From the NCBI GenBank assembly GCA_016712675.1, contig JADJQR010000001.1, forward strand, positions 4,077,999-4,141,998: 64,000 nt of DNA, written 5' to 3'. Positions 32,516 to 39,373 of this stretch are shown piece after piece (position 1 is the first letter of the stretch; every line of letters begins with the position of its first letter). Source of the DNA: a bacterium. GTDB lineage: Bacteria; Krumholzibacteriota; Krumholzibacteriia; LZORAL124-64-63. A program made the translations under genes and the position numbers. Below the pieces are notes generated by a model. The model ran no database searches and had not been told where the DNA came from. It was given only the letters and a program-made list of their open reading frames with translations.

Positions 32516-33661
32516 ATGGATCCGTCGCACACAGGGAGCTCCGCCCAGTCGCCGGCTGGCGAAGCCATCGCCCGGTTGACCGAGCAGGCCGCGCGCCTGC
32601 TGACCATCCTTGAAGCGCATCCCGACCGGATCAGCGTGGTGGACCCGGACACGCATGAAGTGCTCTTCGCCAACCGGCGCTGCCGGGAGGACATCGGGAT
32701 CGATCCTGTCGGGCATGTCTGCTACGAGGCCATGCACGGTCGTGATGCGCCCTGCGAGTTCTGCCGCGGCAGCATCCTGAGCGCAAAGCCGGGCGTGCCC
32801 GAGCGCTGGGAACGGCACGACGAGCGCAGCGGGCGCGACTACGACATCACCGACATCCTCATCCCCTGGACAGATGGCCGACTGGTACATTACCAGCTGG
32901 CGGTTGACTGCACCGAGCACAAGCAACTGCAGCACCGGCTCGAGGACAGCATCAAGGAACTGGCGCGCTCCAACGCCGAGCTGGAGCAGTTCGCCTACCT
33001 TGCCTCGCACGACCTGCAGGAGCCGCTGCGCAAGATCCAGGCGTTCGGGGACCGGCTGGCAACTCACCTTGGCGACGACCTCGACGAGCGCAGCCGCGAC
33101 CACCTGACCCGCATGCTCGACTCGGCGCACCGCATGCAGCAGCTCATCAACGACCTGCTCGCCTACTCGCGCGTCGGGATGCAGGCCCAGGTGTTCGGCG
33201 AGGTCGACCCGGCGGTCATCGTGCAGCAGGTCGTCAGCGATCTCGAGCTGCGCATCGAACAGAGCGGTGGGAGCGTCGAGATCGGCACCCTGCCGCCGCT
33301 GCAGGCCGACCCCACGCAGCTGCGGCTGCTCCTGCAGAACCTCATCGGCAACGCCCTGAAGTTCCACCGCCCCGGCGTGCCGCCGGTGGTCAAGGTCACG
33401 GGCACCGTGCGCGGTCGCCAGGTGCTGCTGACGGTTGCCGACAACGGCATCGGGTTCGACGAGAAGCACAAGGAACGCATCTTCCGCATCTTCCAGCGCC
33501 TGCACACGCGGCAGGAGTACGAAGGTACGGGACTGGGCCTGGCCGTCTGCGAGAAGATCGCGCAGCGGCACGGCGGCCAGATCACCGCGACGGGGCGGCC
33601 CGGCGAGGGCTCCGTCTTTACCGTCAGCCTGCCGCGCCGGCAGGCCACCCGCAGGGAGTGA
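32516..33661 (+). CDS. Cytoplasmic PAS-domain sensor histidine kinase
   Basis: PAS region with a Cys-rich segment (CYEAMHGRDAPCEFC), H-box LASHDLQEPLRKI, and N/G1/G2 boxes (GNALKFH, DNGIGF, GTGLGLAV). Confidence 0.85.
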   Translation: MDPSHTGSSAQSPAGEAIARLTEQAARLLTILEAHPDRISVVDPDTHEVLFANRRCREDIGIDPVGHVCYEAMHGRDAPCEFCRGSILSAKPGVPERWERHDERSGRDYDITDILIPWTDGRLVHYQLAVDCTEHKQLQHRLEDSIKELARSNAELEQFAYLASHDLQEPLRKIQAFGDRLATHLGDDLDERSRDHLTRMLDSAHRMQQLINDLLAYSRVGMQAQVFGEVDPAVIVQQVVSDLELRIEQSGGSVEIGTLPPLQADPTQLRLLLQNLIGNALKFHRPGVPPVVKVTGTVRGRQVLLTVADNGIGFDEKHKERIFRIFQRLHTRQEYEGTGLGLAVCEKIAQRHGGQITATGRPGEGSVFTVSLPRRQATRRE

Positions 33662-33665
33662 CTCC

Positions 33666-34127
33666 ATGGCGGTCAGCAAGCCGATCACGATCCTGTACGC
33701 CGAGGACGACGAGGAGGACCGCACGCTGGTCCTCGAGGCGATGCGGGAAAGTCGCCTGGGCAACCACATCGTGACCGTCAGCGATGGCGAAGAGCTGCTC
33801 GAGTACCTGCAGTGCAAGGGCCGTTACTCGGGGCGGGCCCCGGGCTTGCCCGGGCTCATCCTGCTGGACCTGAACATGCCGCGGCTGGACGGCCGCGAGG
33901 CATTGCGCGAGATCAAGGCGGACGCGGACCTGCGCCGCATCCCGGTCATCGTGCTGACGACCTCGCGGGCCGAGGAGGACATCCTGCGCACCTATGACCT
34001 GGGCATCAGCTCGTTCATCGTCAAGCCCGTGACCTTCGACAGCCTGGTCGACACGGTGCGCACGCTGGACAAGTACTGGCTGGAAATCGTGGAACTGCCC
34101 GTACCCCGGCAGTCGACGGGCGGTTGA
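33666..34127 (+). CDS. Single-domain CheY-like response regulator
   Basis: EDDEED acidic pocket, phospho-acceptor LILLDLNMP, T (VLTTS) and K (FIVKP) residues. Confidence 0.85.
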   Translation: MAVSKPITILYAEDDEEDRTLVLEAMRESRLGNHIVTVSDGEELLEYLQCKGRYSGRAPGLPGLILLDLNMPRLDGREALREIKADADLRRIPVIVLTTSRAEEDILRTYDLGISSFIVKPVTFDSLVDTVRTLDKYWLEIVELPVPRQSTGG

Positions 34128-34128
34128 G

Positions 34129-36858: not shown

Positions 36859-38798
36859 GCCTGGTGAACGACCGGCAGCGGCGCGAGGATCTGGACGTCC
36901 TCCTCATCGAGGACGATGCCGACGATCGCGCACTGGTCCGCGAGATCCTGGCCGAGGTCTGCCTGGGTCCGTCCGGCGCCGGCCGCTGCCGGCAGAGCGA
37001 CGCCGCGACGCTGGCCGAGGCGCTGGCGATCCTGGGCGAGACGTCCTTCGACGTGATCCTCCTGGACCTGCACCTGCCGGACGCGGCCGGCCTGGAGGCG
37101 CTGGTCCGGGTGACGTCGGCCCAGGGCCTGGCGCCCGTTCTGATCCTGACCGACCTGCACGACGAGGCGGCCGGCCTGGCCGCGGTCCGCGAGGGCGCCC
37201 AGGACTTCCTGGTGAAGGACCGGCTGGACGGCCCGCGGCTGGGGCGGGCGATCGCCTACGCCATCGAGCGCCACCGGATGCGGCGCGAGGTCGCGATACG
37301 GGCGCGCGAGCTGTCGGCCAGCGAGGACCGGCTGCGCCGGCTCATCGCCGCGGCTCCCGACGGGATCGTCATCACCGACCGCGAGGGTGTAGTCGCCTTC
37401 TGCAACCCCGCCGCCGAGGTGCTCTTCAACCGGCCGCGCTCGGCGCTGATCGGCAGTCCGCTGGGCCTGCCGGTCGACGGCAGCCGCAATGAACTGGAAC
37501 TGCGCCGGCCGGACGGGCGTCCGCTGACGGCGGAGATGCGCGTGGCGCCGGTCGAGTGGCTCGGCCTGCCGGGCTACCTGGCGAACTTCCGCGACATCTC
37601 GGCGCACAAGGAGACGCTGCAGCAGCTGGACGACATGCGCGTGCGTCAGATCATGGTCCGCGACCAGTTCCTGTCGCACGTCTCGCACGAACTGCGGACG
37701 CCGCTGACGGTGGCCCAGCAATGGGTCGCGCTCCTGCGCGACGGCCTGATCGGAGCGGTCAGCGACGAGCAGAAGACGGCGCTGGAGACCGTGCTGCGCA
37801 ACTGCCGCCATCTCGAGAAGCTGATCGAGGACCTGCTCGAGGCACAACGCAGCGAGACCGGCAAACTGCGCGTTGAGCCGCTGCGCGCCCCGCTCCGTGG
37901 GCTTGTCGACGACGCCATCGCCTCGGTGCGGGCGGCCCAGCGCACCGATACGGTCCGCTTCGGCGCCGACCTGCCGAACGCGCTGCCGGACCTGCTGGCC
38001 GACCCGGGCCGCATCCGGCAGGTGCTGATCAACCTGTTGAGCAACGCCGCGCGCTTCACGCCCGCCGACGGCTCGATCACGGTCACGGCGATGATGGAGC
38101 CCCATGCCCCGGGCGAAATGCGCGTCTCGGTCAACGACACCGGCTGCGGCATCCCGCCCGCGGAGCAGGAGCGCATCTTCGAGCACCTCTACCAGCGCGA
38201 GACCGAGACGGAGATCGGCCGGCGTGGACTGGGGCTGGGCCTGTACATCTGCCGCCAGATCGTCACGCAGCACGGAGGGCGCATCTGGCTGGATAGCACC
38301 GAGGGGCGTGGCAGCACGTTCCACTTCACGGTGCCGGTGTTCTCCTGCCGCGCGATGCTCGCGAAGCTCCCGGTGCACGCCACCGGCGGCGGCGCCCTGT
38401 GCCTGGTGGGCATCGATGCACGCCCGGTCGGCGGCCCGCTGCAGGCTTTCGAGGTGCGGTACCTCGACGCCATGCGGCGCGTGGCCGGAGAGTGCCTGAT
38501 GCCCGACCGCGACCTCCTGCTGCCGCGCCTGACCTGCGACGAGCAGGGGGAGCTTGCCTTCATCGTCGCCACCGCCGATGCCGCCGGAACCGCCGTACTC
38601 GTGGACCGGCTGCGCAACCAGCTTGAGGCTGCCGGGGACACGGGGGCAACGCGCCTGGACTTCCGCTTCGATGCGGCCCCCCTGGCGGTGGTGCCTCGGA
38701 TTGGACGGGCGACCGATGCCTGGCTGGACGAAGCCGCTCTTGCCCTCCAGGACGAGCTGGAGCGCATGACACGGGCGGCCGGGCGCCAGCTCGACTGA
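36855..38798 (+). CDS. Hybrid REC-PAS-histidine kinase with a C-terminal ~190-aa domain of unknown function
   Basis: N-terminal receiver (LLIEDDADD...ILLDLHLPD...FLVKD), PAS domain, H-box VSHELRTPL and HATPase_c (NLLSNAARF, DTGCGI, GLGLGLYICR). ATGA overlap with the kaiC stop. Confidence 0.85.
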   Translation: MSLVNDRQRREDLDVLLIEDDADDRALVREILAEVCLGPSGAGRCRQSDAATLAEALAILGETSFDVILLDLHLPDAAGLEALVRVTSAQGLAPVLILTDLHDEAAGLAAVREGAQDFLVKDRLDGPRLGRAIAYAIERHRMRREVAIRARELSASEDRLRRLIAAAPDGIVITDREGVVAFCNPAAEVLFNRPRSALIGSPLGLPVDGSRNELELRRPDGRPLTAEMRVAPVEWLGLPGYLANFRDISAHKETLQQLDDMRVRQIMVRDQFLSHVSHELRTPLTVAQQWVALLRDGLIGAVSDEQKTALETVLRNCRHLEKLIEDLLEAQRSETGKLRVEPLRAPLRGLVDDAIASVRAAQRTDTVRFGADLPNALPDLLADPGRIRQVLINLLSNAARFTPADGSITVTAMMEPHAPGEMRVSVNDTGCGIPPAEQERIFEHLYQRETETEIGRRGLGLGLYICRQIVTQHGGRIWLDSTEGRGSTFHFTVPVFSCRAMLAKLPVHATGGGALCLVGIDARPVGGPLQAFEVRYLDAMRRVAGECLMPDRDLLLPRLTCDEQGELAFIVATADAAGTAVLVDRLRNQLEAAGDTGATRLDFRFDAAPLAVVPRIGRATDAWLDEAALALQDELERMTRAAGRQLD

Positions 38799-38977
38799 AG
38801 CGCGCGAACGCCGGGCATCTGCCGGGGCGCCCGCGGCAACCGCCAGACAACGCACCGTCTTCCCGCTAAAGTTTGCCCGTATGTATCCGATGACCCCGCT
38901 CGGCATGGCCGCCGCCATGGATCTCACCGCGCGTGTGCCCAGCCGGCAGGGCCACGGTGTCTGCGAAAGGGTCTACG

Positions 38978-39373
38978 ATGAGTCGAGCTCGCATCCTGCT
39001 GGTGGACGACGACGCCGACCTGCTCGAGGCCGTGCGTATCCGCCTGCGATCCGCCGGCTACGAGGTGCACACGGCCGGCGACGGCGTCCAGGCCACGCGC
39101 CTGGCGCGCCTCGAGCAACCCGACCTGGTGGTGCTGGATATCGGCATGCCCGGGGGCGACGGTCACACCGTGGCCAACCGTCTGAAGAACGACCCGGTCA
39201 CGATGTTCACGCCGATCGTGTTCCTGACCGCGCGCACGAACGAGAGCGACTTCGAGCGCGCGCGGCAGAACCACGTGGACAAGTACCTGGTCAAGCCGTT
39301 CCAGGTGGACGAACTGGTGCTGGCGGTCGATGAGCTCGTGGAACGGGCCGCGCGGGCGAGCCTCGCCGTCTGA
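38978..39373 (+). CDS. Single-domain CheY-like response regulator
   Basis: ILLVDDDADLLEAV...VVLDIGMPGGDGH...VFLTAR...YLVKP. Confidence 0.85.
   Translation: MSRARILLVDDDADLLEAVRIRLRSAGYEVHTAGDGVQATRLARLEQPDLVVLDIGMPGGDGHTVANRLKNDPVTMFTPIVFLTARTNESDFERARQNHVDKYLVKPFQVDELVLAVDELVERAARASLAV

What the first reader, a model, noticed from the sequence alone, without database searches (positions are those of the whole stretch)
32516..39373. kaiABC-like locus embedded in a seven-gene two-component cluster in an apparently non-cyanobacterial genome
The gene order is PAS-HK, CheY-like RR, REC-fused KaiA-like protein, KaiB, KaiC, REC-PAS-HK and CheY-like RR. Gaps and overlaps are tight (5 bp, 2 bp, 3 bp, an 11-bp overlap, an ATGA overlap, then a 180-bp gap), which suggests one operon. 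KaiB and KaiC are known outside cyanobacteria. A co-encoded KaiA-like partner plus dedicated input and output kinases is rare outside cyanobacteria. Such a locus could encode a complete post-translational oscillator or hourglass timer. The genomic context (secreted hydrolases with FlgD/T9SS-like tails, 70% GC, ubi genes) argues against a cyanobacterial origin.
Basis: partly seen in the sequence, partly recalled or inferred. Interest (0 to 1): 0.85.

Follow-up and report, generated by a model that had tools for sequence, protein, structure and literature searches.

The report
KaiA3-KaiB-KaiC timer operon with kinases
An uncultured non-cyanobacterial bacterium carries a complete KaiA3-KaiB-KaiC protein-clock operon, a type already described in 2024, wired directly to its own sensor kinases; it is a new member of a known kind, and the attached kinases are candidates for the clock's still-unknown input.

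Summary
The seven genes are real, co-directional and tightly packed. An independent gene call on another contig gives the same genes. KaiB and KaiC are unambiguous, and KaiC passes both NCBIfam KaiC equivalog cut-offs.

Its family is the published KaiA3 family (Köbler 2024). All 80 related genomic loci have kaiB immediately downstream, and most have kaiC after that. The loci include the taxa named for KaiA3 (Microcystis, Roseiflexus). The Microcystis copies lack the acceptor Asp, as published.

The host is not cyanobacterial; it is probably Krumholzibacteriota or a relative. KaiA3-type partners are not rare outside cyanobacteria: 54 of the 80 best loci are non-cyanobacterial, and the family has 1,780 50%-identity clusters.

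One observation I did not find in the papers consulted. The flanking kinases recur only in non-cyanobacterial loci: an upstream kinase in 26 of 43, and a kinase after kaiC in 21 of 38.

Verdict: new member of a known kind, moderate interest.

The parts
32327..32515 (+). Intergenic region upstream of the first gene; likely promoter region of the cluster
   Evidence: 189 bp at 54% GC against 69% for the cluster and the window. It contains a TTGACA at 32422-32427. No consensus sigma-70 site passed the scan, so the promoter role is inferred only.
32516..33661 (+). HK1: sensor histidine kinase with an unassigned Cys-rich N-terminal sensor
   Evidence: HisKA aa 156-220 and HATPase_c aa 265-375. The N-terminal 150 aa have no Pfam hit at E=10. 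It carries a C-Y-x9-C-x2-C motif that is kept only in the close relatives L001 and L002. An HK1-like kinase core lies directly upstream of kaiA3 in 26 of 43 non-cyanobacterial loci.
33666..34127 (+). RR1: single-domain receiver of the phytochrome-response-regulator (Rcp1) type
   Evidence: REC E 4e-19. The closest PDB sequences are Rcp1, RcpA, RcpB and RtBRR, at E 1e-31 to 1e-33. Orthologues at 41-78% identity sit directly upstream of kaiA3 in 14 of 43 non-cyanobacterial loci.
34129..35025 (+). KaiA3-type protein: phosphorylatable REC, long linker helix, and a KaiA-like four-helix bundle at aa 177-274 (nt 34657-34950)
35028..35357 (+). KaiB (divergent, KaiB3-like)
   Evidence: PF07689 E 1e-19. 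S. elongatus KaiB E 1e-16. It scores below the NCBIfam KaiB equivalog cut-offs, 68 against 110. The start is TTG with a Shine-Dalgarno sequence GGAAAGGAG.
35347..36858 (+). KaiC, double-domain, KaiC3 group
   Evidence: It passes NF006799 (709 bits, cut-off 408) and TIGR02655 (611 bits, cut-off 546). The phosphosite region TEAHISTITD is conserved. It is 66-67% identical to cyanobacterial KaiA3-linked KaiCs and 55% to T. elongatus KaiC1. It has the conserved C-terminal motif E-[IV]-x-R-[LIM]-x-x-[LM]-F and no Rhodobacter-type extension.
36855..38798 (+). HK2: REC-PAS-HisKA-HATPase_c hybrid kinase with an unassigned 150-aa C-terminal tail
   Evidence: Pfam domains. The best NCBIfam hit for the kinase core is NF006800/PRK09303, whose N-terminus is also hit by KaiB; from memory this is the SasA model. 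The score is 203 bits, below the cut-off of 342. A kinase lies directly after kaiC in 21 of 38 non-cyanobacterial loci. The tail, aa 496-647, has no Pfam or PDB hit.
38978..39373 (+). RR2: single-domain receiver after a 179-bp gap
   Evidence: REC E 7e-27. Orthologues lie after HK2 in L002 (81%), L003 (79%), L063 (56%) and L008 (44%). The next gene is convergent, on the - strand at 39416-42589.

Best explanation
This is a kaiA3-kaiB3-kaiC3-type Kai timer operon in an uncultured, non-cyanobacterial bacterium of the FCB group, probably Krumholzibacteriota or a relative. It is expressed together with its own two-component wiring.

Proposed mechanism, inferred from the Synechocystis orthologues and from canonical KaiABC:
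1. KaiC hexamers autophosphorylate on the conserved Ser/Thr pair (HISTITD).
2. The dimeric C-terminal four-helix bundle of the KaiA3-type protein binds the conserved KaiC C-terminal tail (EIARLNDMF). This promotes phosphorylation.
3. KaiB binds phosphorylated KaiC and promotes dephosphorylation. The result is a phosphorylation cycle, either self-sustained or hourglass-like.

Unlike canonical KaiA, the N-terminal domain here is a true receiver with the acceptor Asp. Its activity is therefore probably set by phosphotransfer. The most likely donor is a co-operonic kinase: HK1, which has a Cys-rich sensor and is paired with an Rcp1-type receiver, or HK2.

HK2 (REC-PAS-kinase) and RR2 are the most likely output branch.

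Shown here: the gene identities, the predicted fold, the family membership and the conserved neighbourhood. Inferred: all protein-protein interactions, phosphotransfer routes and dynamics.
For: - Gene content and junctions.
- KaiC passes both KaiC equivalog cut-offs. It groups with KaiA3-linked KaiCs rather than KaiC1.
- The family of the third protein has kaiB immediately downstream in 80 of 80 loci, and kaiC after that in most.
- The loci include Microcystis and Roseiflexus, taxa listed for KaiA3 in PMC11372060. As that paper states, Microcystis lacks both the adjacent kaiC and the acceptor Asp.
- The C-terminal model's best PDB matches are KaiA C-domains and the RsbU N-domain. These are the same two families reported for KaiA3.
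- hhalign places the VxxxH and YRR motifs in register with KaiA residues 188-279.
- The receiver residues are intact.
- KaiA3 promotes KaiC3 phosphorylation and KaiB3 promotes dephosphorylation in Synechocystis. KaiA3-KaiB-KaiC sets oscillate in vitro.
- Flanking kinases recur across phyla.
Against: - There is no Pfam KaiA hit at E=10 and no PDB KaiA hit with the family profile.
- The profile-profile match to KaiA is weak: P 0.003, probability 11%.
- Identity to the cyanobacterial KaiA3 proteins is only 30-41%. Nothing has been tested for this clade.
- No evidence bears on which kinase, if any, phosphorylates the receiver.
- RR2 has no output domain.
Confidence: 0.8

Rival explanations
1. The Kai proteins here do not keep time. 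They form a stress- or metabolism-responsive switch in which KaiC phosphorylation simply tracks ATP/ADP or a kinase input, and the REC-X protein acts as a signal-dependent activator. This would resemble what is proposed for other non-cyanobacterial KaiBC systems.
For: - The host appears non-phototrophic in this window.
- The operon is dominated by signalling genes, four of the seven.
- The receiver is phosphorylatable, so KaiC activation could be purely signal-driven.
- PMC11372060 notes that Rhodobacter KaiBC is an hourglass and that other KaiBC homologues are thought to have other functions.
Against: - Cyanobacterial KaiA3-KaiB-KaiC sets give self-sustained oscillation in vitro.
- The KaiC is 66-67% identical to those KaiCs.
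- The phosphosites and the C-terminal tail motif are conserved.
Confidence: 0.3
2. REC-X is an ordinary response regulator with a novel helical output domain. It acts downstream of KaiC, or regulates kaiBC expression, and is not a KaiA-like activator. On this view the resemblance to KaiA is a generic four-helix-bundle similarity.
For: - No HMM-level link to KaiA.
- The hhalign probability is only 11%.
Against: - The gene sits strictly upstream of kaiB in 80 of 80 loci across many phyla.
- The Synechocystis family member binds KaiC3 and promotes its phosphorylation.
Confidence: 0.1
3. The flanking kinases and receivers are unrelated neighbours that happen to be packed next to kaiA3BC, with no functional link.
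For: - Sensor domains differ between lineages.
- Cyanobacterial loci have no such flanks.
- RR2 is separated from HK2 by 179 bp.
Against: - Gaps of 4 and 1 bp and overlaps of 11 and 4 bp link HK1 through HK2.
- The Rcp1-type RR1 is 41-78% identical across phyla at the same position. By contrast, the unrelated RR2 query aligns to those same upstream genes at only 27-37%.
- Eight loci from distant phyla carry kinase, receiver, kaiA3, kaiB, kaiC and a second kinase in the same order.
Confidence: 0.1

Closest known systems
KaiA3-KaiB3-KaiC3 system of Synechocystis sp. PCC 6803 (Sll0485; Köbler et al. 2024, PMC11372060)
   Same: - REC + KaiA-like C-terminal domain architecture, about 290-300 aa.
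- The gene lies immediately upstream of kaiB, followed by kaiC.
- The KaiC lacks a long C-terminal extension and has a conserved Ser/Thr pair.
- The acceptor Asp is present.
   Different: - The host is a non-cyanobacterial FCB-group bacterium with no second, canonical KaiABC visible in the window.
- Identity to the cyanobacterial KaiA3-type proteins recovered here is only 30-41%; the Synechocystis protein itself was not among them.
- Here the operon also encodes two histidine kinases and two single-domain receivers. No cyanobacterial locus examined has these.
Canonical KaiABC oscillator of Synechococcus elongatus PCC 7942
   Same: - Three-gene order A-B-C.
- KaiC is 55% identical to T. elongatus KaiC1, and S. 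elongatus KaiC scores about 560 bits. The phosphosites are shared.
   Different: - The N-terminal domain is a true receiver, not a pseudo-receiver.
- No Pfam KaiA match.
- The KaiC C-terminal tail is shorter and has a different motif.
- KaiB scores below the equivalog cut-off.
- There is no SasA with a KaiB-like domain. A REC-PAS kinase follows kaiC instead.
KaiBC hourglass of Rhodobacter sphaeroides / Rhodopseudomonas palustris
   Same: A non-cyanobacterial Kai system.
   Different: - Those systems lack any KaiA-type partner.
- The Rhodobacter KaiC has an extended C-terminus that is crucial for its oscillation and keeps its A-loops exposed, as described in PMC11372060.
- The KaiC here is 503 aa with no extension. 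It matches Rhodobacter KaiC far less well: 326 bits, against 560-686 for the cyanobacterial and ancestral KaiCs.
RsbU N-terminal domain (Bacillus subtilis stressosome output phosphatase)
   Same: A four-helix-bundle domain of the KaiA-like fold. It is recovered by both structure searches.

Membership tests
KaiA3 (chimeric REC-KaiA homologue) | N-terminal response-regulator receiver domain, usually with a phosphorylatable Asp | tested here: met
   PF00072 E 4.7e-18 at aa 9-118. E13, D14, D60, T88 and K110 are present.
KaiA3 (chimeric REC-KaiA homologue) | C-terminal KaiA-like four-helix bundle | tested here: met
KaiA3 (chimeric REC-KaiA homologue) | Gene immediately upstream of kaiB3, usually followed by kaiC3 | tested here: met
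   In the window the junctions are a 2-bp gap and then an 11-bp overlap. Of the 80 homologous loci, all have kaiB adjacent and most have kaiC.
KaiA3 (chimeric REC-KaiA homologue) | Sequence homology to the published KaiA3 orthologues (Microcystis, Roseiflexus, Chloroflexus and others) | tested here: met
   tblastn E 1e-26 to 1e-40 to loci from these taxa. Microcystis copies carry Ser at the acceptor position, as the paper states. Synechocystis Sll0485 itself was not among the 80 loci shown.
KaiA3 (chimeric REC-KaiA homologue) | Binds KaiC3 and promotes its autophosphorylation | not testable with these tools
   Biochemistry exists only for the Synechocystis protein.
Canonical KaiA (Pfam PF07688 / PF21714) | Match to the KaiA C-terminal domain HMM | tested here: not met
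   No Pfam family at E up to 10 for aa 111-298. The family profile does not hit any PDB KaiA sequence at E up to 10. hhalign against a 120-sequence KaiA profile gives P 0.0028, probability 11%.
Canonical KaiA (Pfam PF07688 / PF21714) | N-terminal pseudo-receiver lacking the acceptor Asp | tested here: not met
   The acceptor Asp D60 and the full receiver signature are present.
KaiC (circadian clock protein, double RecA-like domain) | Score above the curated equivalog cut-offs; two KaiC domains; Ser/Thr phosphosites | tested here: met
   NF006799 709 bits (cut-off 408) and TIGR02655 611 bits (cut-off 546). PF06745 matches twice. TEAHISTITD aligns with the S431/T432 region.
KaiC3 subgroup | Closer to KaiA3-linked KaiCs than to KaiC1; no extended C-terminus | tested here: met
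   66-67% identity to cyanobacterial KaiA3-linked KaiCs against 55% to T. elongatus KaiC1. Length is 503 aa and the shared tail motif is present. This rests on pairwise identities, not a tree.
KaiB | KaiB domain; curated equivalog cut-off | tested here: inconclusive
   It passes the Pfam PF07689 cut-off (70.5 bits, cut-off 27). It scores below the NCBIfam equivalog cut-offs (68 against 110; 64 against 145). This is consistent with a divergent KaiB3-type protein.
SasA-type clock output kinase | N-terminal KaiB-like (thioredoxin-like) KaiC-binding domain plus kinase core | tested here: not met
   Only the kinase core of HK2 matches the PRK09303 model, at positions 137-379 with 203 bits (cut-off 342). 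Its N-terminus is REC-PAS.

The most novel reading that the evidence does not exclude
The kinase-receiver-kaiA3-kaiB-kaiC-kinase(-receiver) cassette may be a self-contained, horizontally mobile timer with built-in input and output, present in many non-phototrophic phyla. The co-operonic Cph1/Rcp1-type kinase HK1, or alternatively HK2, would then be the long-sought cognate kinase of the KaiA3 receiver. In that case the clock's activator would be gated by phosphotransfer from a lineage-specific sensor, here a Cys-rich and possibly redox- or metal-sensing domain. That would give a genetically defined entrainment pathway for a Kai oscillator outside cyanobacteria.
Probability: 0.35. Interest if true: 0.65.

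Novelty: new member of a known kind. Interest (0 to 1): 0.42.

Why it matters
The KaiA3 receiver has no known kinase in Synechocystis. The authors state that the cognate kinase is not yet identified. In this locus, and in 26 of 43 non-cyanobacterial loci, a kinase sits directly upstream in the same orientation. In the window it is separated only by RR1 and gaps of 4 and 1 bp, and 14 of the 43 loci also carry that Rcp1-type receiver. That makes the input question directly testable by phosphotransfer assays.

The locus also shows that a complete three-protein Kai set is widespread in non-phototrophic, uncultured phyla. This bears on whether KaiA-type activation, and possibly self-sustained timing, arose outside or before cyanobacteria.

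Tried and rejected
- Pfam scan of the C-terminal 188 aa at E=10 found nothing.
- phmmer of the whole REC-X protein against PDB sequences gave receiver hits only.
- The C-terminal family profile against PDB sequences gave only noise (SHERP, AHSP) and no KaiA.
- The Foldseek search with the full-length model was swamped by receiver domains. KaiA 4g86 appeared only at rank 14, so I re-modelled the C-terminal part alone.
- hhalign against a single KaiA sequence and against a 120-sequence KaiA profile stayed weak: P 0.008 and 0.003.
- The promoter and terminator scan of 31000-40000 was uninformative. It found no promoters, and the terminator-like sites were no more frequent than in shuffled sequence.
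- The idea that longer family members are kinase fusions was rejected. They are REC-PAS-KaiA3-type proteins.
- The idea that HK2's 150-aa tail is a CikA-like pseudo-receiver or a degenerate GGDEF domain could not be supported. It has no Pfam hit and no PDB profile hit.
- ORFs in 30923-32385, upstream of the cluster, have no Pfam hits.
- A cyanobacterial origin of the contig was rejected.

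
Full report
OBSERVATION

The region 32516-39373 holds seven co-directional genes on the + strand.
- HK1: 32516-33661, 381 aa, HisKA + HATPase_c.
- RR1: 33666-34127, 153 aa, receiver only.
- REC-X: 34129-35025, 298 aa, receiver at aa 9-118 plus about 180 aa that Pfam does not recognise.
- KaiB: TTG start at 35028, ends 35357, 109 aa, PF07689 E 1e-19. 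A GGAAAGGAG ribosome-binding site lies 8 nt upstream.
- KaiC: 35347-36858, 503 aa, two PF06745 domains, E 1.4e-114.
- HK2: 36855-38798, 647 aa, REC-PAS-HisKA-HATPase_c.
- RR2: 38978-39373, 131 aa, receiver only.

The junctions are gaps of 4, 1 and 2 bp, an 11-bp overlap, an ATGA overlap and a 179-bp gap. A 189-bp stretch upstream is 54% GC, against 69% for the cluster. The next gene downstream is convergent.

An independent gene caller produced the first six genes with identical lengths and junctions on a Logan contig that carries the identical REC-X protein; that contig ends inside HK2. The 'PAS' label for HK1 has no Pfam support.

IS THE THIRD PROTEIN KaiA-LIKE?

By HMM it is not. There is no Pfam family at E=10 for the C-terminal part. 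Whole-protein phmmer against PDB sequences returns only receiver hits. A profile of ten homologues finds no KaiA among PDB sequences.

I verified the S. elongatus KaiA sequence against PDB 5n8y and collected 120 canonical KaiA proteins. I then ran hhalign against a 63-sequence profile of the REC-X C-terminal family. The result was P 0.0028 and probability 11% over 87 columns. The register is sensible: window aa 177-272 aligns to KaiA 188-279, with the VVEIH and YRR motifs aligned. This is a hint, not proof.

Structure prediction gives more.
- The full-length AF2 model (pLDDT 80) shows a receiver, a 40-residue helix and four helices at aa 177-274.
- A model of the C-terminal part alone (pLDDT 76) has the T. 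elongatus KaiA C-domain 1q6a as its best Foldseek hit among 350,542 PDB chains (probability 0.99, E 0.19, TM 0.65). KaiA 5jwr, Anabaena KaiA 1r5q (TM 0.73) and the RsbU N-domain follow.
- KaiA and RsbU are exactly the two structural relatives that Köbler et al. reported for KaiA3.

FAMILY AND CONTEXT

A scan of one genome per GTDB species with the C-terminal profile found 170 relatives, and the best 80 were fetched. In all 80 the gene is followed at once by kaiB. In most it is then followed by kaiC at 61-91% identity to the window's KaiC.

The loci include Microcystis, Roseiflexus and Chloroflexaceae, taxa that Köbler et al. list as KaiA3 carriers. Two of that paper's specific remarks are reproduced. 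Microcystis has kaiA3-kaiB without an adjacent kaiC. Microcystis also lacks the receiver's acceptor Asp, carrying Ser instead. I therefore file REC-X as a KaiA3-family member.

An exhaustive HMMER search finds 1,780 50%-identity clusters with this C-terminal domain. In every one of the 150 best hits listed the domain is at the C-terminus, and most of those proteins are about 280-300 aa long. Variants carry REC-PAS or REC-PAS-PAS N-termini, or none at all.

One caveat applies. The scan seeded on two conserved peptides, so the invariance of those motifs is partly by construction.

KaiC AND KaiB

KaiC passes both NCBIfam KaiC equivalog cut-offs. It keeps the T/S/T phosphorylation region.

It is 66-67% identical to the KaiCs that sit next to KaiA3 in cyanobacteria, and 55% identical to T. 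elongatus KaiC1. Those cyanobacterial KaiCs are themselves only 55-58% identical to KaiC1. This places the window's KaiC in the KaiC3 group, by pairwise identity rather than by a tree.

Its best PDB match is the reconstructed ancestral KaiC-beta, 8ZN5. It has no Rhodobacter-type C-terminal extension. All KaiA3-linked KaiCs share a C-terminal E-[IV]-x-R-[LIM]-x-x-[LM]-F motif. This is the obvious candidate for the KaiA3 docking peptide.

KaiB is a clear KaiB-domain protein but scores below the equivalog cut-offs, as expected for a divergent KaiB3.

HOST

- GC is 64-74% across the window.
- The window encodes a protein with a T9SS sorting tail.
- The dihydrolipoyl dehydrogenase gene's best named relatives are 'bacterium', Krumholzibacteria and Gemmatimonadales at 77%. 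No cyanobacterial name appears among the 120 best hits, few of which carry any organism name.
- The closest KaiA3 locus belongs to a Candidatus Krumholzibacteriia MAG, at 76%.
- The 88-89% identical dehydrogenases lie on contigs of exactly the same lengths as those of L002 and L003 (35,401 and 249,678 bp). The cluster therefore appears to be resident in this lineage.

The contig is not cyanobacterial.

THE FLANKING KINASES

RR1's closest solved relatives are the phytochrome response regulators Rcp1, RcpA, RcpB and RtBRR, at E 1e-31 to 1e-33.

The counts among related loci are:

| Feature | Non-cyanobacterial loci | Cyanobacterial loci |
|---|---|---|
| Kinase directly upstream of kaiA3, same strand | 26 of 43 | 0 of 19 |
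| That kinase plus an RR1 orthologue (41-78% identity) | 14 of 43 | 0 of 19 |
| Kinase directly after kaiC | 21 of 38 | 0 of 8 |

The denominators count only loci with enough flanking sequence.

Eight loci carry the whole kinase-receiver-A3-B-C-kinase order. By record title they include two Verrucomicrobiota MAGs, Ca. Moanabacter, Ca. Magnetobacterium, a Chloroflexaceae MAG and three unclassified MAGs.

Sensor domains differ between lineages. The window's C-Y-x9-C-x2-C motif is shared only with its closest relatives.

HK2's kinase core scores best against NF006800/PRK09303, but below that model's cut-off. KaiB also hits the N-terminus of that model; from memory it is the SasA model. HK2 lacks SasA's KaiB-like domain. 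Its 150-aa tail remains unassigned.

MECHANISM

By analogy with Synechocystis, KaiA3 promotes KaiC3 phosphorylation and KaiB3 promotes dephosphorylation. KaiA3-KaiB-KaiC mixtures from Synechocystis and Cyanothece also oscillate in vitro. The three core proteins here most likely form a phosphorylation-cycle timer.

The receiver of the KaiA3-type protein is intact. Köbler et al. state that its cognate kinase is unknown. The co-operonic HK1 or HK2 is therefore a specific, testable candidate for the input. HK2 and RR2 are a plausible output.

None of these interactions is shown here. Whether the system is self-sustained or hourglass-like is open.

NOVELTY

REC-KaiA chimeras and kaiA3B3C3 synteny outside cyanobacteria are published (PMC11372060). 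kaiABC operons outside cyanobacteria were noted earlier (PMC8113500). This locus is a new member of that kind, in a phylum not named in those papers.

What I did not find in the papers consulted is the recurrent embedding in two-component genes, and its restriction to non-cyanobacterial lineages. That gives the finding moderate rather than high interest.

Noticed in passing
window 32516-32990 (HK1 aa 1-158): The N-terminal sensor region of HK1 has no Pfam hit even at E=10. It carries a C-Y-x9-C-x2-C motif (CYEAMHGRDAPCEFC). The motif is kept in the two closest relatives (L001, L002) and is absent from 24 other kinases found upstream of kaiA3. It may be a metal- or redox-sensing PAS-like domain.
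   Followed up: partly
window 38340-38795 (HK2 aa 496-647): A 150-aa tail follows the ATPase domain of HK2. It has no Pfam hit and no PDB profile hit. It is conserved in L002 and L003 and partly in L063. Its fold and role are unknown.
   Followed up: partly
L039:720-2318, L068:5042-6625, L074:5411-7036, L030:6588-8558, L072:7836-8492, L080:7875-8426: The KaiA3-type C-terminal domain also occurs on REC-PAS proteins (Chloroflexaceae), on a REC-PAS-PAS protein (Caldilineaceae) and as a stand-alone protein of about 190-220 aa (Ca. Magnetobacterium, Methylobacter). In each case it lies next to kaiB.
   Followed up: partly
L062 (Candidatus Obscuribacterium magneticum MAG), 4898-9537: This MAG carries kaiA3-kaiB-kaiC followed by a hybrid kinase. 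From memory its name belongs to the non-photosynthetic sister lineage of cyanobacteria, which was not checked here. If so, it could bear on where the system originated.
   Followed up: no
window 3429-27679: This is a lower-GC stretch (64-67%). It holds two IS91-type Y2 transposase ORFs (8859-9812 and 22629-24221, - strand), an rve integrase (18422-19333, + strand) and two DUF4143 AAA ATPases (3429-4673 on the - strand, 26288-27679 on the + strand). It looks like a mobile-element-rich zone a few kb upstream of the kai cluster.
   Followed up: no
window 44725-45744 and 57038-59134: An HD-GYP-type HD_5 protein and an HDOD-REC-GGDEF protein lie within 20 kb downstream. They are possible c-di-GMP targets of single-domain receivers such as RR1 or RR2.
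   Followed up: no
window 11363-14146 (- strand) and 29701-31119 (- strand): Two secreted-type proteins carry FlgD Ig-like domains, and one also has a T9SS sorting tail. This supports an FCB-group host.
   Followed up: partly
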